Shown: positions 24,645-44,475, numbered from the stretch's first letter. The stretch is DNA of 64,000 nucleotides from a bacterium (GCA_030704665.1 JAUYID010000009.1:586460-650459); one strand, 5' to 3'. Numbers and translations are program-made. Notes: generated by a model not told the origin, from the letters alone.

Positions 24645-26873
24645 ATGTATAAAAACCTGCTCCTTTTGCATCAACTTGAAAAAGAAGACTCCCCTGAGGT
24701 TGGGTTCAAGGCCGCACGTTTGGGTGAACTGTCCAGGCAAGGTCTAAAAACTCCCTCTGGCTTTGTCATTGCTTCAGAAGCTTTTTTTGATCTCCTCAAA
24801 AATAACAATCTTTACGAAAAATTTGAAAGCCTTTTTAAATCTCTGGACTTTCACCACCATCATGAACTCGAAAGCGCTTCTCTAATTTTTAAAAAGGCTC
24901 TTTTGGCTTCCCAACTACCAACTGATTTGGAGGAAAAGCTCAAAAGCGTCTTTTCTTCGTTTTCTCCTGTCTCAAGCCAATTTTTTCTTTCTTTGAGTAC
25001 AAACAATGAAGCTGTTGCCAGTTTTTTTGAAGAAAAGGAAAAATTTTTCACCGCCAGAAGTCTAAACGTCTTTATCAAAGAATTAAAATCTTCTTGGGCG
25101 GACGTCTTTGACCCAAAAGTTATTTTTCTTGCCAAAAGCAAGGAAGTTGACTTTGCAACTCTGACCCCAAGCTTAGTTTTTCAAGCCCTCGCCGCCGCCG
25201 ATGCCTCGGGGACGATCAAAACAAGGCAAACTTCTCTCGGCAACCTTGTTTCCCTCACCGCCCTCTGGGGTTTGGATACGGACCTTCACAAAAGAGTCGA
25301 TGAGGCAGACACTTACTTGGTTGACAAAAAAACCTTGGCCATTGTCCGAAAAACCATTGGTCAGCAAAAAATTCAACTCATTCCTGTGAGGGATAGTGTC
25401 AAAAAACTGCCAGTACCTTTAGTCTTTTCTAGCCAACAAAAACTTGAGGATCGCCTCATTCAAAAGCTGTGCAAAGACGCAGTAAAAATAGAGAACCACT
25501 TTCTTTCTCCCCAAAAAATCCACTGGTTTTTGGTTGACGACAACCTAATGATCGACAGTACCCAGCCTTTAGAGGAAACAGAGAAGATAAACTTCAACTC
25601 CGCCCGCTTACTTCTGGAAAATTCTCTACAAGTTCTCGCCAAAGGAAGGGGTCTCTATCCAGGAATTGCAACGGGACCAATTAAATTTTTAAGCTCGAAA
25701 TTGACTAGTACCAAACCAAACCTGAGCAAAGTAAAAAATGGGGATATAGTTTTTCTCAAAGAGTACTCGAACAAATACTCTCCTCTACTTCGCAAGGCTG
25801 CTGGCTTGGTAGTCAGCAAACTTCCAGAAAAAGCCTTTAGCGCTTCTTTAAGAAATCTGGGCAAACCAACTCTGGTTGGAGAAGTAGCGGAAAACTACGC
25901 TGGACAAGTCGTTACTCTTGATGGTGGAGAAGGAAAAGTACTGAAAGGTGCTTGGGCTAGGGAGTCCCGGCGCAGTCTTCCCACCCGAGCACAGACAGTC
26001 CCAGAACACCGTCGGCTCACCAAAATTTTTGTTAGTACCGGAGAGCCACAACTTGCGCAGGAACTGGCCCAACAAAACTTCGACGGAGTTGGTTTACTGC
26101 GCGCCGAGCCAATTTGGACGCAGATCGGTACTCATCCCCAGCTGGTTCTGAGAGAAAAGGGAGAGAAAAAGTTTGTTCGCGCTCTCGCAAACCAGATCGG
26201 CAAACTCGCGGCAGCTTTTTCCCCTCGGCCGGTGATCTACCGAGCCAGTGAATTTACTCTCGAGGATTTGCAGGCTCTTCGCGGTAGTCCCAAAGAGCAA
26301 GCTTCTGAGAGCTCTCCCCAAGGAGCTGCCTATTTTCTAGCTCATCCAGAGCACTTTGAACTTGAGCTTGAAGCAATCAAGGAGGTACGCAATGGTCTGG
26401 GCTTTAAAAACCTTTGGCTCGCGATTCCTCTAGTTCGCAGCGTTGAAGAAATGGAAAAAATCAAAAAACAAGTTTCCGGCATTGGTTTACCTCGTTCTGG
26501 CTCTTTCCGCTTGCTGATGATCGCGGAAGTTCCCGCCAACACGGTTCTCATCGATCAATTCTTGGAAACCGGTATTGATGGCCTTGTTGTTGATGTAGCT
26601 GATCTTGCTTCTTTGATTTTGGGTAAGACCACTTCACCGGGTTCAAAAACTAGCCCGGCGGTGCTCGATTCTTTAGCTAGATTGATCAAAGAAACCCGCA
26701 AAAGAAAGCTCTTTGCTTCGGCTATTCTTCAAGCCGGAGAGCTGAACGAGGAAATCTTGGAAACCCTCGTCCGAGCCGGAGTCTCGGCTGTTTCCGTGCC
26801 GCACCCTTACCTGAACCAGGCGGCTTCACTTTTGACTAAAGCTGAAAAGAAAATTGTCACGGGAAAAAACTAG
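24645..26873 (+). CDS. PEP-utilising-enzyme family protein (PpsA / pyruvate,water-dikinase-like), probably non-canonical
   Basis: 742 aa. N-terminal nucleotide-binding domain (GFKAARLGELSRQGLKTPSGFVIASEAFF), central mobile domain and C-terminal barrel (GVGLLRAEPIW, RASEF). The expected phospho-His (GGRTSHAA) appears as LPEKAFSA, and the MCE Cys as MIAEVP. Confidence 0.65.
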   Translation: MYKNLLLLHQLEKEDSPEVGFKAARLGELSRQGLKTPSGFVIASEAFFDLLKNNNLYEKFESLFKSLDFHHHHELESASLIFKKALLASQLPTDLEEKLKSVFSSFSPVSSQFFLSLSTNNEAVASFFEEKEKFFTARSLNVFIKELKSSWADVFDPKVIFLAKSKEVDFATLTPSLVFQALAAADASGTIKTRQTSLGNLVSLTALWGLDTDLHKRVDEADTYLVDKKTLAIVRKTIGQQKIQLIPVRDSVKKLPVPLVFSSQQKLEDRLIQKLCKDAVKIENHFLSPQKIHWFLVDDNLMIDSTQPLEETEKINFNSARLLLENSLQVLAKGRGLYPGIATGPIKFLSSKLTSTKPNLSKVKNGDIVFLKEYSNKYSPLLRKAAGLVVSKLPEKAFSASLRNLGKPTLVGEVAENYAGQVVTLDGGEGKVLKGAWARESRRSLPTRAQTVPEHRRLTKIFVSTGEPQLAQELAQQNFDGVGLLRAEPIWTQIGTHPQLVLREKGEKKFVRALANQIGKLAAAFSPRPVIYRASEFTLEDLQALRGSPKEQASESSPQGAAYFLAHPEHFELELEAIKEVRNGLGFKNLWLAIPLVRSVEEMEKIKKQVSGIGLPRSGSFRLLMIAEVPANTVLIDQFLETGIDGLVVDVADLASLILGKTTSPGSKTSPAVLDSLARLIKETRKRKLFASAILQAGELNEEILETLVRAGVSAVSVPHPYLNQAASLLTKAEKKIVTGKN

Positions 26874-27121: not shown

Positions 27122-27221
27122 GGGCTAAAAACTTACCATCTTTCTTGGTTGGCTGTCAATCAAATTTCCTGAAGAATAGATTGCAACTTTAGCCTCGATT
27201 TGTTATCATGCAAATTTGCGT

Positions 27222-27344
27222 GGGCCTCTAGCTCAATTGGCGAGAAAGCCAACTGCTTGTCTTTTGAGAGGAATTTTAGCTAAGATTGATTCTAGCGTTA
27301 AGAAATTCCTGGAAGAGTAGCGGCCTTTGAAGGAGGATCCTGTT
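27222..27344 (+). repeat. partial duplicate of the tRNA-Lys 5' portion (19 nt) plus about 100 nt of hairpin-rich sequence, directly upstream of tRNA-Lys
   Basis: GGGCCTCTAGCTCAATTGG at 27222-27240 is identical to tRNA-Lys positions 1-19. Nested inverted repeats follow (TTGGC/GCCAA, GGAATTT/AAATTCC). A second degenerate anticodon-arm-like block lies at 27318-27335. Confidence 0.6.
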
Positions 27345-27420
27345 GGGCCTCTAGCTCAATTGGTAGAGCAGCGGCCTTTTAAGCCGCGTGTTCTGGGTTC
27401 GAGTCCCAGGAGGCTCACCA
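27345..27420 (+). tRNA. tRNA-Lys (anticodon TTT)
   Basis: Cloverleaf with acceptor GGGCCTC/GAGGCTC, D-arm GCTC..GAGC, anticodon stem GCGGC/GCCGC with loop CTTTTAA, T-arm CTGGG-TTCGAGT-CCCAG, encoded CCA. Confidence 0.9.
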
Positions 27421-27581
27421 GGATCTTCTTTCCTTCGGAAACAAGACAGTCGTTCTGGGTTCGTTTTTAATAAATTGGCAAGAGGCCAAGATCCCAGCGG
27501 GCTCACCAAATCCGATTTATATTGATATAGTAAGCAAAAGAAAAAGGCGCCCATTGCTGAACGCCTATTAATAGCGGTCTC

Positions 27582-27905
27582 TTAGGTCAAAGGGCGTGAG
27601 CTTTGAATAACATTAATCTCCCCTAATGCCCTTTCCAGAATTGGGTTGATTTTGTAGGACCAACCCTCGCTGCATGCAGTAGTGACAACTCCAATCTGCT
27701 CCCCGGACATAGAATTTGAGAGTGGAGAAGTAACAGCTACAACTATATGAGTACCTCTGTAGAAAAGGTGGTATAACTTCACCTCGCTCTTACTAAATTT
27801 AGGTACAAGTGCTTTGTAGGCTGTATCTGCCGAGCTAGACAACATAAACCCAAACGCGACCGCCCTTACCAATTTCATCTTCTGTCCTTTCACCACTAAA
27901 CTCAC
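27582..27905 (-). CDS. small secreted protein (hypothetical)
   Basis: 107-aa ORF. The likely true start is the internal Met at about 27878 (MKLVRAVAFGFMLSSSADTAYKA, a signal peptide). Confidence 0.4.
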   Translation of the reverse strand: MSLVVKGQKMKLVRAVAFGFMLSSSADTAYKALVPKFSKSEVKLYHLFYRGTHIVVAVTSPLSNSMSGEQIGVVTTACSEGWSYKINPILERALGEINVIQSSRPLT

Positions 27906-28079
27906 CTCAGGTTGGCGAGCCTAATGATGTCTTTGTTGTTTTGATTTGGGAAAAATAATTGGGGAAGAAACTTAAACCAAGGCACGACAAGACCGCCAAC
28001 TTAGTTGGATGTCTTGCTTTTCTTGATGTTTAAGTTTAAATTCATTGTTTGGAGTTTACCCCAAGAGCACAGTTTTGTC

Positions 28080-28103
28080 AAAAAGCTGCCATTCTAGCAC
28101 TTT
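28080..28103 (+). repeat. direct repeat copy 1: AAAAAGCTGCCATTCTAGCA(C)TTTT, left boundary of the AT-rich cassette
   Basis: 20 nt identical to 30011-30030; extends to 24 nt with one indel. It overlaps the -35 to -10 region in front of the 28122 operon, and TGTAAAAT lies 10 nt downstream. Confidence 0.8.
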
Positions 28104-28121
28104 TGGTGTAAAATTCGAAAT

Positions 28122-28670
28122 ATGAAACTTTATCGATTCAGCCCGATTAAAAAATTAGAAAAACTATTTGAAGCAATTAAACACATTCATTTTGAGGCTC
28201 ACAAACTTTCAAAACAATCCTTCGGCTATTACCTTCCAAATAACGCTGGTAACATTGGTGTGTTTTGTCACTATGACGATGAATATGAAGCTCTGATAAA
28301 GATTAGAAAAGACTTAACAAAACCCTCCGATAATCCAAACCAAAAGTACTTCACTTTACTAAAACCAATCGTTATTCCAGCACAAGATGATGTTCCAGAA
28401 ACTACTTACACCCATCTTTATATTCGAAAACCAGACCCCTATCGCCATCACGTAGGAGATGTTGATTTCTATTTGGAGCCAGAAGAGTACAAAAAACCAA
28501 AAGGAGAACTACTTGCTGGTAAGAAAATGAAAGGAGCTAGAGTTTTTGAAAGACCTGATTTGGATATGATTGAACTTTTTGATCCGGACGTTGATGTTCT
28601 TGCTTACGTTAGCACTGAAAAGATGTCAGAAGCAGTCAGGGTTAAACTTTCTGAACACACTAAACTATAA
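28122..28670 (+). CDS. hypothetical protein (AT-rich cassette)
   Basis: 182-aa ORF, about 30% GC, first gene of a three-gene same-strand cluster. No motif recognised. Confidence 0.5.
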   Translation: MKLYRFSPIKKLEKLFEAIKHIHFEAHKLSKQSFGYYLPNNAGNIGVFCHYDDEYEALIKIRKDLTKPSDNPNQKYFTLLKPIVIPAQDDVPETTYTHLYIRKPDPYRHHVGDVDFYLEPEEYKKPKGELLAGKKMKGARVFERPDLDMIELFDPDVDVLAYVSTEKMSEAVRVKLSEHTKL

Positions 28671-28671
28671 A

Positions 28672-28962
28672 ATGATAATTCATATAGCTTTGTTCAAATT
28701 CAAACCAGAAATTTCTAACGAAGACATTAATCATGCAATGGTTGAAGTTAGATCATTGAAGGACAAGATTCCTCAAGTTGTTGAGATCTTTGCTGGGGAA
28801 AACTTTTCTAAACACTCCAAAGGTTTCACTCATGCAATCGTGGTAAAATTTGCTAGCAGGGAAGATATTGATACCTATCGAGCTCACCCTGACCACAAAC
28901 CAATAGCAGACAAACTAGATTCTTTAGAGGATGATTCTATAGGAATCGATTTTGAAGTATGA
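28672..28962 (+). CDS. Dabb (stress-responsive dimeric alpha/beta-barrel) domain protein
   Basis: MIIHIALFKFKPE...VVKFASREDIDTYRAHPDHKPIADKL matches the Dabb pattern. Start trimmed to the ATG 1 nt after the preceding stop. Confidence 0.7.
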   Translation: MIIHIALFKFKPEISNEDINHAMVEVRSLKDKIPQVVEIFAGENFSKHSKGFTHAIVVKFASREDIDTYRAHPDHKPIADKLDSLEDDSIGIDFEV

Positions 28963-29567
28963 AAAGACTTTTCTTAGCCTCAGTTTTTGCTGAATCAGCA
29001 GATAAATTTGTTGATGCATTTCACGATTCCCTTGAGAAAACAACGGTAGCCTTTATTCCCACTGCTGCTGACCCATATGAGGACAAATGGTTTGTTGATG
29101 TTGATAGAAAAGCACTGGAAGAGAGAGGTTACTTAGTGCAGGAGGTAGATTTGAAGAAAAAAGGTGAAGGTAACTTGAGAGAAGAAATGGGTAATGCCGG
29201 TATAATTTTTGTCTGTGGTGGAAATACTTTCTACCTGCTTGAAAAGGCTAGAGAATCAGGTTTTGATGAGGTTGTAAAAGAGTTTGTTGAAAAAGGGGTT
29301 ATCTATATTGGATCGAGTGCAGGGTCTGTGCTAGTAGGACCAGACATTGAACCAGTAGCGTGGATGGATGATCCCAGCAAAGCCAAATTAGATTCAACAA
29401 AAGGTTTTGGACTAGTAGACTTTGTTGCCCTGCCTCATTTTGGCAACAAGAAGTACATATCAAAATATGAAGAAATAATGGAAAAATATTCAGGAAAATA
29501 CGATTTGATCAAGCTAACTGATCAAGAAGCAGTTGTTGTGGAGGGTGGGAACCATAGGATCGTATGA
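28959..29567 (+). CDS. peptidase S51 family protein (dipeptidase E / cyanophycinase-like)
   Basis: ...VAFIPTAADPYEDKWFVDVDRKALEERGY...IFVCGGNTFYLLEKA...IGSSAGSVLVGPDIE is the type-1 glutaminase-like S51 fold with nucleophile Ser in GSSAGS. Overlaps the Dabb gene by 4 nt (ATGA). Confidence 0.7.
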   Translation: MKRLFLASVFAESADKFVDAFHDSLEKTTVAFIPTAADPYEDKWFVDVDRKALEERGYLVQEVDLKKKGEGNLREEMGNAGIIFVCGGNTFYLLEKARESGFDEVVKEFVEKGVIYIGSSAGSVLVGPDIEPVAWMDDPSKAKLDSTKGFGLVDFVALPHFGNKKYISKYEEIMEKYSGKYDLIKLTDQEAVVVEGGNHRIV

Positions 29568-29572
29568 AGTCC

Positions 29573-29971
29573 CTAAAGTGGGTAAAGCAAATATATAGGT
29601 TTTTCTGGTAGTCTCTGTCTAAACCCAGCTTCTCGTTTATCAACTGGAAAGTTAAGCCAAGGATCCATCCATCTTTTCCCCATTCTACATAAATAATGTC
29701 CTTCAGGGTATTTCTTAGACCTTCTCAGAAAGACCATTTCCCCTTCCTTGTAAATTCTCTTTCTTAGTTTGGGTTTGATGTAATTGTATTCGTACCTCAA
29801 CCCTTGGTTTGCGAGTACTTCAACGATTTCACGACAATAGAAACCTGTGTTCTGAGACTTTTTCTCACCCTCTCTAAACAGACTTAAAGCACTTTGATAA
29901 CCAATTTCTAAGATTGAGGCAACACAAGCTACGCCACAACCAAAGTCGTCTTCCTGTTTTATTGGTTTCAT
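29573..29971 (-). CDS. standalone peptidase-C39-like (papain-like Cys peptidase) domain protein
   Basis: 132 aa. DFGCGVACVASIL matches the C39 catalytic-Cys motif, with His in PEGHYLCRM. No fused ABC transporter domains. Confidence 0.55.
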   Translation of the reverse strand: MKPIKQEDDFGCGVACVASILEIGYQSALSLFREGEKKSQNTGFYCREIVEVLANQGLRYEYNYIKPKLRKRIYKEGEMVFLRRSKKYPEGHYLCRMGKRWMDPWLNFPVDKREAGFRQRLPEKPIYLLYPL

Positions 29972-30010
29972 AAAGGGATTGTAAGATTTATATATTTATT
30001 AACAAGAAGT

Positions 30011-30034
30011 AAAAAGCTGCCATTCTAGCATTTT
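30011..30034 (+). repeat. direct repeat copy 2: AAAAAGCTGCCATTCTAGCATTTT, right boundary of the AT-rich cassette
   Basis: Identical 20-mer to 28080-28099. Base composition returns to background immediately after it. Confidence 0.8.
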
Positions 30035-30089
30035 AATTATCAGCCGCTCAACTAGACAACCAAGAAAGCTTTCGGCTAAACTTAGGTGA

Positions 30090-31043
30090 ATGAAGCTAGC
30101 ACCGAAACTGGTCCGCATTTTAGGTTTTTCAGAAGAAAGCGAAAGCAACAAATTCCTCTATCTGATCTGCATCATTTATCTTGTGGCTCTGAGCCTTTTC
30201 ATGCTTTGGCATCGCATGTGGTTTTCCCCGGATCAATTTCTGATTGCAGCGGTGGTAGCAGCGCTTATTTTGGGAAAATTTGGTCAGTTTGTCAAAGATT
30301 GGGTGCCTTTCGTTCTCCTCTTTCTTGGCTATGAGGCCCTGCGTGGCCTCGCCCCGATTCTCAACAAAAACGTTCACATCACTGAAATGATCCAAGCTGA
30401 CAAATTTATCTTTGGTTTTTTACCCACGATCAGACTCCAAGAGCTTCTTTTCTACCCGGGCCAGCCACAATGGTACGACTTTGTGGCGATCATTCTCTAC
30501 ATGTCCCACTTCATCATGCCCATGGTAACAGCCTTTGTTTTTTGGCTGCTTGATAAAAAAACCTTCCGGGAGTTTACTTGGGCACTGATCATTCTTTCTT
30601 TCGCTGGTTTTATCACCTATGTACTCTATCCAGCCATGCCACCTTGGCTGGCTGCCAACCAAGGCTACCTACCCCCCTTGGAAAAAATTATGGACGCCAC
30701 TATCGCCAACCTCGCCAACCCTATTGCTCTACCAACCGTTTACAAGCTTTTCCGAGGCGATGAGGTCGCCGCCATGCCTTCGTTACACGCTGCCTACCCA
30801 ATTTTAATCGCTCTTTTCTTTGTGCGTAAATTTCGCCTCTCCGCCCTTTTGACTGTCCCCTATGTAGCGACCGTTTGGTTTGCGGTAGTTTACCTCGGAG
30901 AGCACTACGTCATTGACGTTATCTTTGGAGCGCTCTACGCCCTGATCGTCTTTTTGCTTGTCACAAAGAAAGACTACTTACTGTCTAAGCTAAGGGTACT
31001 AAAAAACGAAACAAGAGCCGAGACTAGCAAAGCTCAGACTTGA
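30090..31043 (+). CDS. PAP2-superfamily membrane phosphatase-like protein (PAP2_C/AUR1-like)
   Basis: 317 aa, polytopic, with PSLHAAYP and GEHYVIDV resembling PAP2 motifs C2 and C3. Confidence 0.5.
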   Translation: MKLAPKLVRILGFSEESESNKFLYLICIIYLVALSLFMLWHRMWFSPDQFLIAAVVAALILGKFGQFVKDWVPFVLLFLGYEALRGLAPILNKNVHITEMIQADKFIFGFLPTIRLQELLFYPGQPQWYDFVAIILYMSHFIMPMVTAFVFWLLDKKTFREFTWALIILSFAGFITYVLYPAMPPWLAANQGYLPPLEKIMDATIANLANPIALPTVYKLFRGDEVAAMPSLHAAYPILIALFFVRKFRLSALLTVPYVATVWFAVVYLGEHYVIDVIFGALYALIVFLLVTKKDYLLSKLRVLKNETRAETSKAQT

Positions 31044-31070
31044 AATTTAACTATTAGCCAAAATTTTGTT

Positions 31071-31466
31071 ATGATTGAAACTGTGATAGAAGATCACGCT
31101 CCTGCCAAACACTTCAACAGCATCCGTTTCGCGGTCGCTGGTCTGATTCATGTCTTCACAACTCAGAGAAACTTTCGCTTGCAGTCCATTTTGGGATTGT
31201 TGACTATTCTTCTCGCCCTCTTGTTTGACTTTGACCGAGTCGAGTGGATCATTCTTCTTTTGACCATTGGGCTAGTTTTAACCGCCGAAATTGCCAACAC
31301 TGTTTTGGAAACATTAGTTGACCTTTCGGTCACTCGCCTTCACCCCAAAGCAAAAATTGCCAAGGACTTGGCCGCCGCCGCTGTACTGATCATTGCCGTT
31401 TTTGCTGCCTTCATTGGCGCTTTTCTTTTTTGGCCCCACTTTTGGACTTTGCTCTGCAGCCTTTAG
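31071..31466 (+). CDS. dgkA: diacylglycerol/undecaprenol kinase (DgkA family)
   Basis: 131 aa, three TM helices, conserved EIANTVLETLVD (E..N..E). Homology clearly begins within the first 10 aa. Confidence 0.75.
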   Translation: MIETVIEDHAPAKHFNSIRFAVAGLIHVFTTQRNFRLQSILGLLTILLALLFDFDRVEWIILLLTIGLVLTAEIANTVLETLVDLSVTRLHPKAKIAKDLAAAAVLIIAVFAAFIGAFLFWPHFWTLLCSL

Positions 31467-42833: not shown

Positions 42834-43466
42834 CTATCTCACCCGTTTATGGAGCTCTTCGTCGACACGGACAGCTCCATTCTCGTCAGTGTAGAACAAA
42901 CGCACGAAAGGCACCCCAGACTCCCTGATTCTATCCCCTCCCCGCTCGTGGCGTTCAACTACAGTAGCCACACCAACCACCTCAGCTCCTTCTCCTCGTA
43001 CTATTTCTGCGGTATAGAGCAAGGAAGAGGCGGTTGTGACCGTATCTTCGATCAAGACGACCCGACAACCGGGACGCAAAAGTGGTCCGCCGTCGTCAGC
43101 CACCGAAGCCGAGATCGTCTTCTCTTCCTTAAGACCGTGGGTTTTACTCTCTCGACGCACGAAAAAGCTGGGAATGACCGCACCCATGTCACGAGCCGCA
43201 GCAGTAAGTGCGGCGGTAACTGGAATTGCCCCTGACTCTTTACCACCGACGGCGTCTGGCCGCATCCTTATCACCGCTGGGGCTAGCAGTTTGCCAATGC
43301 TTGAGGCAAAGTTTGGGTGCAGACTGAGCAGTCGCAGGTTGCAGTAATAGTTGCTTTCTACCGCAGTCAAGCGAATTGGACTGTCGTGGTGGCTAATCGC
43401 AAACCTCTGAATGCTCTCCCGCAACATCTCGACTTCAAAAGCATCAACTCCCCACTGAATCGGCAT
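42834..43466 (-). CDS. pyrE: orotate phosphoribosyltransferase (GC-rich island)
   Basis: 210 aa. PRPP-binding motif VVLIEDTVTTASS and the type-I PRTase fold pattern. Coding GC is far above the window background. Confidence 0.8.
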   Translation of the reverse strand: MPIQWGVDAFEVEMLRESIQRFAISHHDSPIRLTAVESNYYCNLRLLSLHPNFASSIGKLLAPAVIRMRPDAVGGKESGAIPVTAALTAAARDMGAVIPSFFVRRESKTHGLKEEKTISASVADDGGPLLRPGCRVVLIEDTVTTASSLLYTAEIVRGEGAEVVGVATVVERHERGGDRIRESGVPFVRLFYTDENGAVRVDEELHKRVR

Positions 43467-43503
43467 TTCACTCTCTCCTCAATAAGGCAAGGTTGCCTCC
43501 TCC

Positions 43504-44475
43504 TCAGGTCGACGAACCGAGAGATACCAAAGCCGCGTGGGCACTTCTGATCCTCTCGATCTCCGACGAGTAGAACTCCGCCGCCCGCGCTGCCGCCTCG
43601 GCGAAATTCGCCGGGTCCGCCTTGAACTGGTCGCTCAGGTAGGCGTAGAGCACAGCGCTGCTCACATTGACGACGAAGTCAGCAGGTAGGTCAGTACTGA
43701 ACGCGCCCTCGACCGCTCTCTCAAGGTCGCCTCCTTGCGCACCGACACCAGGGATAAGGAACGGCAGTTGTGGTGCAATCTTGCGAACCTGCGCCAACTC
43801 CTCCGGATAGGTCGCCCCGACCACTAGACCACAGTTGCCGGTACCATTCCACCCAGTGGCAACCTTGTGAGCTACCACCTGATAGAGTGGCACGATCTGC
43901 TGACCAGGTATCTTCTGCTCGACTCCTGAAATCAGAGAATCCCCGGTGAGAATGCAGGGTAGGTCCTGGAATTCGGGCGCTCCTGGGTTGGTTGTGCGGC
44001 AGAGCACGTAGAAGCCACGGTCATCGCAGTCTGTAAAGACTTGTCCCGCGCCCTTCCACCCCAGGTAGTTGTGGAGAGTAACGGCATCGAAACCGAGCTG
44101 GCCGAAGAGGGCTTCGACGTAGGCCCTGTTGGTATTGCCGATGTCGCCACGTTTGGCGTCGCCGATAATTGGCATCTCTGAATCGAGGCGGTGAATCTCG
44201 TCGATAACAGACTTCAGCGTTGGCCAACCAGATTCTCCGAGGGCCTCGAAGAAGGCGACGTTGACCTTGAAGACTGCTGCGTGACGAACAGTCGCACGGA
44301 CGATCCTGAGACAGAAGTCGCCAACACTGACTCCCTCAGGGATCTTCTTCGTGTCAGGATCAACCCCAACACAGAGACGTTTGCCAACCTCCGCTTTGGC
44401 TGCCAGTTTCTGAAGATAACTACTCACTGTCTTCCAAACTCCTACTAGCCGCTTACGCAGCTGCCTACCGATCAA
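43504..44475 (-). CDS. pyrF: orotidine-5'-phosphate decarboxylase, long (type-2) form (GC-rich island)
   Basis: 323 aa. LCVGVDPD...IIGDAKRGDIGNT is the OMPdecase catalytic motif (DxKxxDIxxT). About 65-70% GC locally. Confidence 0.75.
   Translation of the reverse strand: MIGRQLRKRLVGVWKTVSSYLQKLAAKAEVGKRLCVGVDPDTKKIPEGVSVGDFCLRIVRATVRHAAVFKVNVAFFEALGESGWPTLKSVIDEIHRLDSEMPIIGDAKRGDIGNTNRAYVEALFGQLGFDAVTLHNYLGWKGAGQVFTDCDDRGFYVLCRTTNPGAPEFQDLPCILTGDSLISGVEQKIPGQQIVPLYQVVAHKVATGWNGTGNCGLVVGATYPEELAQVRKIAPQLPFLIPGVGAQGGDLERAVEGAFSTDLPADFVVNVSSAVLYAYLSDQFKADPANFAEAAARAAEFYSSEIERIRSAHAALVSLGSST

What the first reader, a model, noticed from the sequence alone, without database searches (positions are those of the whole stretch)
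28073..30035. 1.9-kb AT-rich four-gene cassette bounded exactly by 20-24-nt direct repeats
Two copies of AAAAAGCTGCCATTCTAGCA, each followed by a short T-run (24 nt with one indel), sit at 28080-28103 and 30011-30034. Between them the base composition drops to about 30-35% GC, against about 42-47% on both sides, and the drop starts and ends at the repeat copies. The enclosed genes are a 182-aa unknown, a Dabb stress-barrel protein, an S51 (PepE/cyanophycinase-like) peptidase, and a convergent standalone C39-like cysteine peptidase. That combination is not a known operon. A flanking direct repeat plus a compositional step is the classic footprint of a site-specific insertion with a duplicated att or target site. 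However, no integrase or recombinase is present, and the repeat also overlaps putative promoter elements in both copies. The alternative is therefore a shared operator or promoter controlling two neighbouring operons. Either way this is an accessory module whose function is open. One guess is peptide processing or degradation: the C39 domain normally cleaves double-glycine leaders, and S51 enzymes cleave Asp-containing dipeptides or cyanophycin-like polymers.
Basis: seen in the sequence. Interest (0 to 1): 0.7.

Follow-up and report, generated by a model that had tools for sequence, protein, structure and literature searches.

The report
Shared promoter motif, not insertion scars
The two 20-24-nt repeats around this AT-rich gene cluster are copies of a roughly 38-nt promoter-like sequence that one group of tiny uncultured bacteria (Microgenomates) reuses in front of many unrelated accessory genes, so they mark where transcription units start, not the ends of an inserted element.

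Summary
AAAAAGCTGCCATTCTAGCA occurs exactly twice in the window, at 28080 and 30011. The 1.9 kb between the copies is the lowest-GC stretch of that size in the 64 kb (37.2% against a mean of 44.1%).

The repeat is not an att site. It is the most conserved part of a motif, consensus (CAT)AGCTGCCATTCTAGCAYTTTTGGTGTAARATNCRAA. I found 23 instances of this motif in other Microgenomates contigs (Woykebacteria, Curtissbacteria and others), next to unrelated genes.

- In 11 of the 23, an ATG lies 6-10 nt after the TAARAT box.
- In 12 of the 23, a divergent gene starts 7 nt after the opposite-strand TGCTAGAAT box.

I therefore read the motif as a compact back-to-back promoter pair for leaderless genes.

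Copy 1 is a full motif 7 nt upstream of the 182-aa gene. Copy 2 keeps only the left half. A distant syntenic relative has motif + 182-aa + Dabb at the same place. Another genome has 182-aa + S51 + C39-like, again between two motif copies, in a different context. No integrase lies nearby.

The low GC3 is real and follows these genes into every host examined. Old horizontal exchange remains possible, perhaps using the motif as homology.

The 182-aa protein has a YecM-like VOC fold. The C39-like protein is a standalone papain-fold peptidase with an intact catalytic set.

The parts
27582..27896 (-). 104-aa ORF of unknown function. It is the left flank, has host-like GC (44%) and is followed by a terminator-like hairpin at 27566-27545.
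   Evidence: Gene call; no Pfam or NCBIfam family; GC; terminator scan.
28080..28103 (+). Direct repeat copy 1 (24 nt). It is the left part of motif copy 1.
28082..28118 (+). Full copy of the Microgenomates promoter-like motif. It holds a -35-like CTGCCA (28086-28091), a 17-nt spacer and a -10 TAAAAT (28109-28114) that ends 7 nt before the ATG at 28122. On the minus strand it holds the extended -10 TGCTAGAAT (28099-28091).
   Evidence: PWM built from instances in other genomes scores 55.7 of 62.8 bits, against a shuffle maximum of 0.7. The promoter scan calls CTGCCA-17-TAAAAT. Alignment with 20 other instances.
28122..28670 (+). 182-aa protein from a highly conserved CPR family with a YecM-like VOC (glyoxalase/dioxygenase-type) fold. 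It is the first gene of the transcription unit.
28672..28962 (+). Dabb (stress-responsive alpha/beta barrel) protein, 96 aa.
   Evidence: Pfam PF07876, 79.6 bits. It follows the 182-aa gene in L011 as well. A Dabb gene follows a motif copy in Woykebacteria L043.
28959..29567 (+). Peptidase S51 family protein, 202 aa. It overlaps the end of the Dabb gene by 4 nt.
   Evidence: Pfam PF03575, 143 bits. Below the PepE and cyanophycinase equivalog cut-offs. 91.6% identical to the S51 gene of L088/L098.
29573..29971 (-). Standalone C39-like papain-fold cysteine peptidase, 132 aa, convergent with the S51 gene.
   Evidence: 113 homologues with H92 and D103 invariant and Q6 and C12 at least 90% conserved. 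AlphaFold2 pLDDT 96.8. Foldseek hits to CdiA-CT papain-like toxin, ComA peptidase domain, a double-glycine protease of an AMS/PCAT transporter (6mpz), PCAT1 and staphopain.
29978..30005 (-). The C39-like gene's own promoter, TTGTTA-N16-TACAAT, ending 6 nt before its ATG. It is conserved with the gene in other genomes.
   Evidence: Promoter scan. The same CTTGTTAATAAA(A)ATATAAAT(T)CTACAAT lies upstream of orthologues in L092, L094 and L096.
30011..30034 (+). Direct repeat copy 2. Only the left half of the motif is kept. The minus strand has the extended -10 TGCTAGAAT (30030-30022). The right half (TGGTGTAARAT) is replaced by AATTATCAGCC.
   Evidence: PWM 22.8 bits. The minus-strand TTGAGC-18-TAGAAT with TG is called. 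The 25-mer 30010-30034 is 100% identical to L008:7402-7426 and L009:3322-3346, from another organism.
30090..31466 (+). Next transcription unit: PAP2 phosphatase (30090-31043) and diacylglycerol kinase (31071-31466). GC is host-like (47%). The PAP2 ATG lies 59 nt after repeat copy 2 and is preceded by AGGTGA.
   Evidence: Pfam; GC; upstream sequence.

Best explanation
The two repeats are two copies of a lineage-wide promoter-like module of Microgenomates (CPR bacteria), with consensus (CAT)A-GCTGCC-ATTCTA-GCA-YTTTTGGTG-TAARAT-N7-ATG.

**Shown**
- The motif recurs nearly unchanged in front of many non-homologous genes in several genomes.
- Start codons sit at fixed short distances on both sides of it.

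**Inferred mechanism**
- On the top strand, CTGCCA-N17-TAARAT acts as a -35/-10 pair. It starts transcription at or just before the ATG 7 nt downstream, giving a leaderless mRNA.
- On the bottom strand, TGCTAGAAT is an extended -10 that does the same for a divergent gene 7 nt away.
- About 38 bp of DNA can therefore be the whole intergenic region between two leaderless genes.

**In this window**
- Copy 1 (28082-28118) is complete and drives the 182-aa/Dabb/S51 operon.
- The convergent C39-like gene has its own conserved leaderless promoter.
- Copy 2 (30011-30034) keeps only the left half, including the minus-strand extended -10. It lies between the C39-like gene and the PAP2-DAGK unit.

The 'cassette' is thus one operon plus one convergent gene, delimited by two promoter regions. 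Its low GC is a property these accessory genes carry in every host examined. That points to a shared, probably horizontally exchanged, accessory gene pool and not to a recent integrase-mediated insertion.
For: **1. The repeat is not private to this locus.**
- The 20-mer hits two contigs of another metagenome. Each carries two copies of the longer motif upstream of unrelated genes.
- A relaxed 19-mer hits 78 genome loci. 13 of them carry the full motif and come from 7 assemblies. Four of those assemblies are labelled Woykebacteria or Curtissbacteria (10 motif matches, 5 in one Woykebacteria MAG). The other 65 loci are single matches in unrelated taxa without the right half.

**2. The right half was not part of any search pattern, yet it is conserved** (TGGTGTAARAT).

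**3. Start codons sit at fixed distances.** Among 23 Microgenomates-type instances:
- 11 have an ATG 6-10 nt after TAARAT. My own rough expectation is about 2.5.
- 12 have CAT abutting GCTGCC, so a divergent ATG lies 7 nt after TGCTAGAAT. My expectation is about 0.7.

**4. The flanking genes are functionally unrelated.** They include uridine kinase, PCC, DUF5680, B3_4, NUDIX, MBL, ArsR, EamA, cupin, SemiSWEET, Ham1, GNAT, homoserine dehydrogenase, Dabb and the 182-aa gene.

**5. The consensus scan independently calls both promoters.** It finds CTGCCA-17-TAAAAT at copy 1 and a TG-extended TAGAAT on the minus strand at copy 2.

**6. Other genes here have -10 boxes 6-12 nt before the ATG** (CAP, L19, C39-like), so a leaderless layout is usual in this genome.

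**7. Related genomes argue against an insertion unit.**
- A distant syntenic relative, L011, has motif + 182-aa + Dabb next to the same UPF0102-RNaseHII-L19-CAP block and no second repeat.
- L088/L098 has three motif copies in 4 kb, each heading a unit.

**8. No recombinase is called between 21.7 and 41 kb**.

**9. Copy 1 and copy 2 are no more alike than copy 2 and copies in other organisms**. Their identity therefore does not indicate a recent duplication.
Against: - No transcription start site data exist, so promoter function is inferred from sequence and position only.
- The spacer between the two -10 boxes (GCAYTTTTGGTG) is conserved far more than an ordinary promoter spacer. A bound protein may be the real constraint.
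- The motif is rare. There are only 2 sites in 64 kb, and no weaker matches. It is not the general housekeeping promoter.
- Copy 2 lacks a convincing forward -10. The PAP2 ATG is 59 nt away with an SD-like AGGTGA, so copy 2 may not drive PAP2.
- The left 19 nt of most instances were fixed by my search pattern. This ascertainment bias overstates conservation of the left half.
- The low GC3 of the cassette (0.27-0.35 against 0.435) is not explained by a promoter reading alone.
Confidence: 0.72

Rival explanations
1. The motif is chiefly the operator of a dedicated transcription factor, or the target of an alternative sigma factor. It would define a regulon of small accessory and house-cleaning genes in Microgenomates. 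The two copies here would place the 182-aa/Dabb/S51 operon and the C39-like and/or PAP2 unit under one regulator. This overlaps with the best explanation; it does not exclude it.
For: - About 37 nt are nearly invariant, including the spacer, which is more than RNA polymerase contacts need.
- The motif is rare in the window. I estimate roughly 5-10 or more copies per genome, and one Woykebacteria MAG has 5 strict matches in the genome scan.
- The core TGCCA-TTC-TAGCA is an imperfect 13-bp palindrome (read directly from the sequence).
- Small winged-helix genes lie directly on motif copies (L071, 63 aa; L066, ArsR family, 102 aa), as autoregulated regulators often do.
Against: - The flanking genes share no pathway.
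- The palindrome is weak, at 4 of 5 positions per half-site.
- The strict 7-nt spacing to start codons on both sides is what promoters show, not operators.
- No regulator has been identified in the window.
Confidence: 0.3
2. The cassette was acquired horizontally, and the motif served as the homology for integration without an integrase. This could be a single crossover of a circular intermediate, or a double crossover, between a donor motif and a resident motif-like sequence upstream of PAP2. In this reading the repeats are recombination joints and promoter copies at the same time.
For: - Cassette GC3 is 0.27-0.35 against a host value of 0.435 +/- 0.073.
- The same genes keep GC3 of about 0.27-0.35 in all hosts. 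They match low-GC hosts (36-38% GC) and fall below 43-45% GC hosts.
- A homologous module (182-aa 88%, S51 92%, C39-like 69% amino-acid identity; 80-83% nucleotide identity) sits in a different context (RecA/RNase Y, toxin-antitoxin genes) in L088/L098. It is again bounded by two same-strand motif copies.
- Homology between the two genomes ends inside copy 2, after GCAYTTT.
- The region lies about 650 nt downstream of a tRNA-Lys with broken partial copies of itself, a sign of past rearrangement.
Against: - L011, a distant relative (L19 66%, RNase HII 49% identical), already has motif + 182-aa + Dabb next to the same conserved gene block.
- Synonymous sites are largely saturated between cassette copies: only 46-58% of identical residues share the same codon. 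Any transfer is therefore old.
- Two consecutive same-strand units with the same promoter type produce this 'flanking repeat' picture without any insertion.
- No empty site was found, and no close relatives are available.
Confidence: 0.2
3. Classic site-specific insertion: an integrase-mobilised islet or integron-type cassette whose att or attC core was duplicated at the two ends.
For: Direct repeats of 20-24 nt coincide with a compositional step. A tRNA gene is nearby.
Against: - No recombinase is called between 21.7 and 41 kb.
- The repeat is a multi-copy motif at gene starts in other genomes.
- The repeat is not derived from the tRNA-Lys 3' end.
- No attC-like inverted repeats lie at the boundaries.
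- The left end plus two genes are shared with a syntenic relative.
Confidence: 0.03

Closest known systems
Putative mobile promoters / promoter reuse (Matus-Garcia, Nijveen & van Passel 2012, PMC3488235; PMC3575422)
   Same: Highly similar upstream sequences lie in front of non-homologous genes, both within a genome and across genera. This is how the motif behaves here.
   Different: PMPs were defined as 50-100 nt with at least 80% identity. This motif is about 37-45 nt, and only L008a/L009a share about 70 nt. It has a fixed two-sided geometry relative to start codons, and it comes from CPR genomes that were not in that survey.
Leaderless-gene promoters (-10 box about 7 nt upstream of the start codon), as described in Actinobacteria and Deinococcus (my own knowledge; the M. 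tuberculosis leaderless transcriptome paper is listed in the references of PMC12641261)
   Same: TAARAT or TAGAAT ends 6-8 nt before an ATG, and no Shine-Dalgarno sequence can fit.
   Different: Here the whole 37 nt, spacer included, is conserved at many loci and across lineages. Start sites have not been mapped.
Bidirectional promoters in the sense of Warman et al. 2021 (summarised in PMC10268837)
   Same: One short DNA segment appears to serve divergent transcription.
   Different: Those are defined by divergent start sites 7-25 bp apart (typically 18 bp) that share one symmetrical -10. Here there are two separate -10 boxes 12 nt apart, and the predicted start sites are about 39 bp apart. 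This is a back-to-back pair, not a shared -10.
tRNA-linked genomic islands and integron cassettes (att/attC-bounded insertions)
   Same: Direct repeats bound a compositionally deviant accessory gene set near a tRNA gene.
   Different: There is no recombinase. The repeats are multi-copy promoter-like motifs, not unique att cores. The repeat is not tRNA-derived and has no attC palindrome.
PDB 1k4n, 'Protein EC4020' (E. coli YecM, to my knowledge), and the VOC (glyoxalase/bleomycin-resistance/extradiol dioxygenase) superfamily, for the 182-aa protein
   Different: Only 11% identity, and no sequence-level match to any Pfam, NCBIfam or PDB family. The function of YecM is itself unknown, to my knowledge.
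Peptidase C39 (double-glycine leader peptidase domains of ABC transporters: ComA, PCAT1, and the AMS/PCAT protease of 6mpz, which I take to be LahT) and papain-like CdiA-CT toxins, for the 132-aa protein
   Same: Papain-like fold with a conserved Gln/Cys/His/Asp set.
   Different: It is standalone at 130-145 aa and is not fused to or next to an ABC transporter. The Pfam score is below threshold. Its gene context varies and its substrate is unknown.

Membership tests
Integrase-mediated genomic island with att direct repeats | A tyrosine or serine recombinase gene inside or next to the element | tested here: not met
   Pfam on the cassette and its flanks. Precomputed Pfam for all called genes between window 21.7 and 41 kb shows no recombinase.
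Integrase-mediated genomic island with att direct repeats | The direct repeats are a duplicated target core specific to the two ends, often a tRNA 3' end | tested here: not met
   The same sequence heads unrelated genes in other genomes. There is no copy of the tRNA-Lys 3' end at the far side.
Integrase-mediated genomic island with att direct repeats | Empty site (a single repeat copy) in close relatives | tested here: inconclusive
   No close relatives are available. The best non-self PAP2 hit is 68% identical, and PAP2 contexts are not conserved. The distant syntenic relative L011 has the left motif + 182-aa + Dabb in place.
Integrase-mediated genomic island with att direct repeats | Composition deviating from the host | tested here: met
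   37.2% GC is the minimum of all 1.9-kb stretches. GC3 is 0.27-0.35 against 0.435.
Integron gene cassette | attC imperfect palindrome at the cassette boundary and an intI nearby | tested here: not met
   No inverted repeat lies at the boundaries. No integrase was found.
Sigma-70-type promoter of a leaderless gene | A -10 hexamer (TAnnnT) ending about 6-8 nt before the start codon, with no room for a Shine-Dalgarno sequence | tested here: met
   Copy 1: TAAAAT at 28109-28114, ATG at 28122. 11 of 23 instances have an ATG 6-10 nt after the box.
Sigma-70-type promoter of a leaderless gene | A -35-like hexamer 16-18 nt upstream, or a TG extension | tested here: met
   CTGCCA (4 of 6 positions) at 17 nt on the top strand. 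TG-extended TAGAAT on the bottom strand.
Sigma-70-type promoter of a leaderless gene | A mapped transcription start at the start codon | not testable with these tools
   No transcriptome data are accessible here.
Bidirectional promoter (Warman et al.) | Divergent start sites 7-25 bp apart that share one near-symmetrical -10 | tested here: not met
   There are two separate -10 boxes 12 nt apart, and divergent ATGs are about 39 nt apart. Definition from PMC10268837. Start sites are inferred, not measured.
Putative mobile promoter family (PMC3488235) | At least 80% identical upstream sequence in front of non-homologous genes | tested here: met
   87-100% identity over 36-56 nt between the window and copies in other loci. 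The flanking genes are unrelated.
Putative mobile promoter family (PMC3488235) | Conserved length of 50-100 nt | tested here: not met
   The conserved core is about 37-45 nt. Only L008a/L009a share about 70 nt.
Peptidase C39 | Sequence match above the Pfam gathering score | tested here: not met
   17.0 bits against a cutoff of 22, E = 0.0056.
Peptidase C39 | Papain-like fold with catalytic Cys and His (plus Gln and Asp) | tested here: met
   H92 and D103 are invariant, and Q6 and C12 are at least 90% conserved, in 113 sequences. Foldseek hits to the ComA peptidase domain, 6mpz and PCAT1 at E about 1e-4 and TM about 0.6.
Peptidase C39 | Association with an ABC exporter and a double-glycine leader substrate | tested here: not met
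   It is a standalone gene, and no ABC transporter is adjacent here or in L092-L098. The substrate is not testable.
Peptidase S51 | Pfam PF03575 above threshold | tested here: met
   143 bits against a cutoff of 23.9.
Peptidase S51 | Equivalog of PepE or of cyanophycinase | tested here: not met
   62.3 bits against 156 for PepE, and 32.9 against 126.6 for cyanophycinase.
YecM / VOC superfamily (182-aa protein) | VOC-type beta-alpha-beta-beta-beta fold | tested here: met
YecM / VOC superfamily (182-aa protein) | Sequence-level family membership, or demonstrated metal ligands | tested here: not met
   No Pfam, NCBIfam or PDB sequence or profile match. Metal ligands were not examined.

The most novel reading that the evidence does not exclude
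The conserved 38-nt promoter module may double as a portable homology 'handle'. Accessory gene sets flanked by motif copies would then be swapped between Microgenomates genomes by recombination within the motif. That would be an integrase-free, promoter-based cassette exchange system, and each incoming gene set would arrive already wired for leaderless expression. The window cassette and the L088/L098 module are both bounded by two same-strand motif copies in different genomic contexts, and their homology ends inside the motif. They would be two snapshots of that process.
Probability: 0.15. Interest if true: 0.75.

Novelty: new member of a known kind. Interest (0 to 1): 0.4.

Why it matters
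Almost nothing is known about how CPR/Patescibacteria start and control transcription. I found no paper in the searchable library that contains this sequence.

- A nearly invariant 38-nt element that can make up the whole intergenic region between two divergent leaderless genes gives a concrete, testable promoter or operator for these uncultured organisms. It recurs across Woykebacteria, Curtissbacteria and related lineages.
- It can be used to predict co-regulated accessory genes, to look for its regulator, and as a candidate expression signal for genetic work.
- It is also a caution for genome scanning. In such genomes, direct repeats that bracket an AT-rich gene set can be reused promoters rather than insertion scars.
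- The 182-aa YecM-like protein is more conserved than ribosomal protein L19 between the window organism and its distant relative L011 (84% against 66% identity). That makes it a worthwhile target for functional work.

Tried and rejected
- **Exact 20-mer in GTDB representative genomes:** 0 hits. The genome and its close relatives are not there, so no direct empty-site test was possible.
- **PAP2 orthologue contexts (L002-L007) as a proxy for an empty site:** the relatives are only 61-68% identical and their contexts are not conserved. Only Woykebacteria shares the upstream PPDK-like gene. PAP2 upstream regions share no sequence.
- **A 182-aa ORF upstream of PAP2 in L007:** it looked like an orthologue but is unrelated.
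- **Viral contigs:** 6 hits representing 2 distinct sequences. They lack the right half and sit in different sequence context, so they are chance matches.
- **Rfam, at gathering and at E <= 1:** only tRNAs across the window. Within 27400-30200 the permissive search gave two sub-threshold chance hits, one of them on the terminator hairpin.
- **tRNA-Lys 3'-end repeat as a far att site:** none beyond 27508.
- **Sequence and profile searches of the PDB for the 182-aa protein:** nothing. Only the fold comparison helped.
- **The motif as the general housekeeping promoter:** rejected. The PWM finds only these two sites in 64 kb.
- **Very recent transfer of the cassette:** rejected. Nucleotide identity to the closest module is only 80-83%, and synonymous codons are largely randomised.
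- **Relatedness of the window genome to the L088/L098 genome:** no shared housekeeping gene was found in the 20-kb locus.
- **Literature searches for the motif or for CPR promoters:** nothing relevant.


Full report
**1. The observation**

The 20-mer AAAAAGCTGCCATTCTAGCA is present at 28080-28099 and 30011-30030 on the + strand. It occurs nowhere else in the window at up to 3 mismatches, and none of 100 shuffles gave two matches. The 24-nt copies differ by one substitution (C/T), not by an indel.

The 1907 nt between the copies are 37.2% GC, against 46% in the 2 kb on either side. Of all sliding stretches of that length in the window (mean 44.1%, sd 2.8), the minimum starts at 28101. The drop is therefore real and coincides with the repeats, but it goes to about 37%, not 30-35%. 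It is also a synonymous-site signal: GC3 is 0.27, 0.30, 0.31 and 0.35 for the four genes, against 0.435 +/- 0.073 for long ORFs of the window.

Gene content is as described:
- a 182-aa ORF with no family;
- Dabb;
- Peptidase_S51;
- a convergent 132-aa ORF with a sub-threshold C39 match;
- then PAP2 and diacylglycerol kinase.

**2. Where the window comes from**

The PAP2 protein is identical to one from an NCBI MAG labelled 'bacterium' on a 938-kb contig. Its best other relatives are 61-68% identical and lie in Woykebacteria, Woesebacteria and Gottesmanbacteria. The organism is thus a CPR bacterium of the Microgenomates group with no close sequenced relative. This is why a direct empty-site test was impossible.

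**3. What the repeat is**

The exact 20-mer hits two contigs of another metagenome. Each holds two copies of a longer sequence, AGCTGCCATTCTAGCAYTTTTGGTGTAARAT, in front of unrelated genes. The 25-mer at copy 2 (30010-30034) is 100% identical to those foreign copies. The two window copies are therefore no more alike than copies in different organisms.

A relaxed 19-mer scan of GTDB representative genomes returned 78 loci.
- 65 are single matches in unrelated taxa without the right-hand extension.
- 13 carry the full motif and come from 7 assemblies.
- Four of those assemblies are labelled Woykebacteria or Curtissbacteria and give 10 matches, 5 of them in one Woykebacteria MAG. Two contigs are labelled Nanoarchaeia and two Gammaproteobacteria.

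BLAST and a position weight matrix then found further, more degenerate copies inside the same 8-kb loci. The right half was never part of a search pattern, so its conservation is independent evidence. The left 19 nt were fixed by the pattern in most instances, so their conservation is overstated.

**4. Anatomy of the motif**

The consensus is (CAT)A GCTGCC ATTCTA GCA YTTTTGGTG TAARAT NCRAA.
- On the top strand, CTGCCA-N17-TAARAT is a -35/-10-like pair. The consensus scan calls it at copy 1.
- In 11 of 23 Microgenomates-type instances an ATG follows TAARAT after 6-10 nt, usually 7.
- The bottom strand reads TGCTAGAAT, a TG-extended -10.
- In 12 of 23 instances a divergent gene's ATG begins exactly 7 nt after it, seen as 'CATA' abutting GCTGCC.

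I estimate chance would give about 2.5 and 0.7 such cases. When both genes are present, the roughly 38 nt between the two ATGs are the motif itself.

Other genes in the window also have -10 boxes 6-12 nt before their ATG, for example CAP and L19. The C39-like gene's own TTGTTA-N16-TACAAT is conserved upstream of its orthologues in three other genomes. A leaderless layout is therefore usual here.

The genes next to motif copies share no pathway. They include uridine kinase, PCC, DUF5680, B3_4, NUDIX, MBL, ArsR, EamA, cupin, SemiSWEET, Ham1, GNAT, a SIR2-like protein, homoserine dehydrogenase, Dabb and the 182-aa protein.

A matrix built only from foreign instances scores copy 1 at 55.7 of 62.8 bits (a full motif) and copy 2 at 22.8 bits (left half only). 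The next site in the window scores -7, and the shuffle maximum is 0.7. The motif is therefore a rare, specific element and not the general promoter consensus.

**5. The cassette in related genomes**

- *L011.* This relative is distant: L19 is 66%, RNase HII 49% and CAP 45% identical. It has homoserine dehydrogenase divergent from [motif]-182-aa-Dabb-abhydrolase, followed after three more genes by the same UPF0102-RNaseHII-L19-CAP block as the window, with no second repeat. The left repeat plus two 'cassette' genes therefore occupy the same neighbourhood in a far relative.
- *L088/L098.* This is a 187-kb groundwater contig. It has [motif]-abhydrolase-182-aa (88%)-S51 (92%), a convergent C39-like gene (69%), then [motif]-209-aa gene, and a third motif copy. 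All this lies among toxin-antitoxin genes next to recA, recX and RNase Y. Nucleotide identity to the window is 80-83%, and the homology ends inside copy 2 after GCAYTTT.
- *Elsewhere.* The 182-aa gene sits with NUDIX, HAD and PNPOx genes or alone. The C39-like gene is a lone gene in variable contexts.

The four genes are thus not a fixed operon, but sub-combinations recur.

**6. Composition**

The four genes keep GC of about 0.33-0.39 and GC3 of about 0.20-0.35 in every host examined. They match hosts of 36-38% GC and fall well below hosts of 43-45% GC (the window, L012 and L096).

Synonymous codons between copies are largely randomised: only 46-58% of identical residues share the same codon. 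Any transfer is therefore old. This pattern fits either an accessory gene pool exchanged among Microgenomates and mostly resident in low-GC lineages, or a gene-specific codon constraint. I cannot separate the two.

**7. The proteins**

- *132-aa protein.* It has H92 and D103 invariant, Q6 and C12 at least 90% conserved, and a papain/C39-like model (pLDDT 96.8). The model matches the ComA peptidase domain, a double-glycine protease of an AMS/PCAT transporter (6mpz), PCAT1, CdiA-CT papain-like toxins and staphopain. It is standalone, with no exporter nearby.
- *S51 protein.* It is a clear family member but is neither a PepE nor a cyanophycinase equivalog.

**8. Interpretation**

The best-supported reading (confidence about 0.7) is that the repeats are two copies of a reused, lineage-wide promoter module for leaderless genes.
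- Copy 1 drives 182-aa-Dabb-S51.
- The C39-like gene has its own promoter.
- Copy 2 is a half-copy at the head of the next intergenic region.

Recurrence at unrelated genes and the start-codon geometry are shown. Promoter activity, start sites and leaderless translation are inferred.

A dedicated regulator binding the unusually conserved spacer is a compatible alternative (about 0.3). Acquisition of the cassette by recombination through the motif remains possible (about 0.2). A classic integrase/att insertion is essentially excluded (about 0.03). No recombinase is called between 21.7 and 41 kb, the repeat is not tRNA-derived, and no attC-like structure is present.

**9. Comparison with what is known**

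- The behaviour matches 'putative mobile promoters', that is, reused upstream sequences in front of non-homologous genes (PMC3488235). The motif is shorter than that definition.
- It resembles leaderless-gene promoters.
- It does not fit the bidirectional-promoter definition of one shared symmetrical -10 with start sites 7-25 bp apart.
- No paper in the library contains the sequence.

**10. Verdict**

The insertion interpretation is not supported, and the shared-promoter alternative is. As an insertion cassette the finding is ordinary. The reused, near-invariant 38-nt module in CPR bacteria is a modestly interesting and apparently undescribed member of a known kind. Interest 0.4.

Noticed in passing
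window 27221-27508: tRNA-Lys(ttt) at 27345-27420 is flanked by broken partial copies of itself. Upstream, an exact copy of its first 20 nt (27221-27240) is followed by 69 nt and then a match to the D-arm/anticodon part (27310-27332, 87%). Downstream, the 5' half of the T-arm (27453-27464) and the 3' end (27492-27508, TCCCAGCGGGCTCACCA) are separated by 27 nt. Independent Logan contigs of the same organism break exactly here. These may be remnants of old integration or excision events, or of tRNA gene rearrangement.
   Followed up: partly
window 42834-44475 (-): A phosphoribosyltransferase-like ORF (210 aa) and an OMP-decarboxylase-like ORF (323 aa) lie in a kilobase of 57% GC, far above the window mean of 44%. 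The identities were judged by eye from the translations and were not checked against any family library. This is a possible foreign pyrimidine-biosynthesis gene pair.
   Followed up: no
L015 and L039 (labelled Nanoarchaeia archaeon); L073 and L088 (labelled uncultured Gammaproteobacteria, CAYIWY01): Full motif copies occur on contigs whose MAG labels are archaeal or proteobacterial. In L088 the whole 182-aa/S51/C39-like module is present too. The gene content looks like Microgenomates, so these are probably mislabelled or misbinned contigs. If the labels are right, they would be cross-lineage transfers.
   Followed up: no
L071:3455 (63-aa gene on the reverse side) and L066:3374 (102-aa ArsR-family gene): Small helix-turn-helix genes start directly at motif copies in a Woykebacteria genome. 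The 102-aa protein is ArsR family by Pfam. The 63-aa protein has no Pfam hit and looks winged-helix-like only by eye. They are candidate autoregulated regulators of the motif.
   Followed up: no
window 29978-30005 (-); L092, L094, L096 upstream of the C39-like genes: The C39-like gene carries its own promoter-like sequence, CTTGTTAATAAA(A)ATATAAAT(T)CTACAAT, ending 6-8 nt before the ATG. The sequence is conserved together with the gene across Curtissbacteria, Levybacteria and Woesebacteria contigs. Promoter-plus-gene units seem to be inherited as one piece in these genomes.
   Followed up: partly
window 24645-26873 and 30090-31043, compared with L004-L006: In Woykebacteria the PPDK-like gene and PAP2 are separated by enolase and a 2-hydroxyacid dehydrogenase. 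Here the same interval instead holds an 83-aa ORF, tRNA-Lys with its fragments, the 104-aa ORF and the cassette. The stretch between these two conserved genes is a variable region.
   Followed up: partly
L008:7343-7445 and L009:3303-3405: Two motif copies in one metagenome share about 35 extra identical nucleotides upstream (GATTCTAATCCCCTAAGGTAGTTACTACT), about 70 nt in all. This suggests a recent within-genome duplication of a promoter-plus-leader segment.
   Followed up: no
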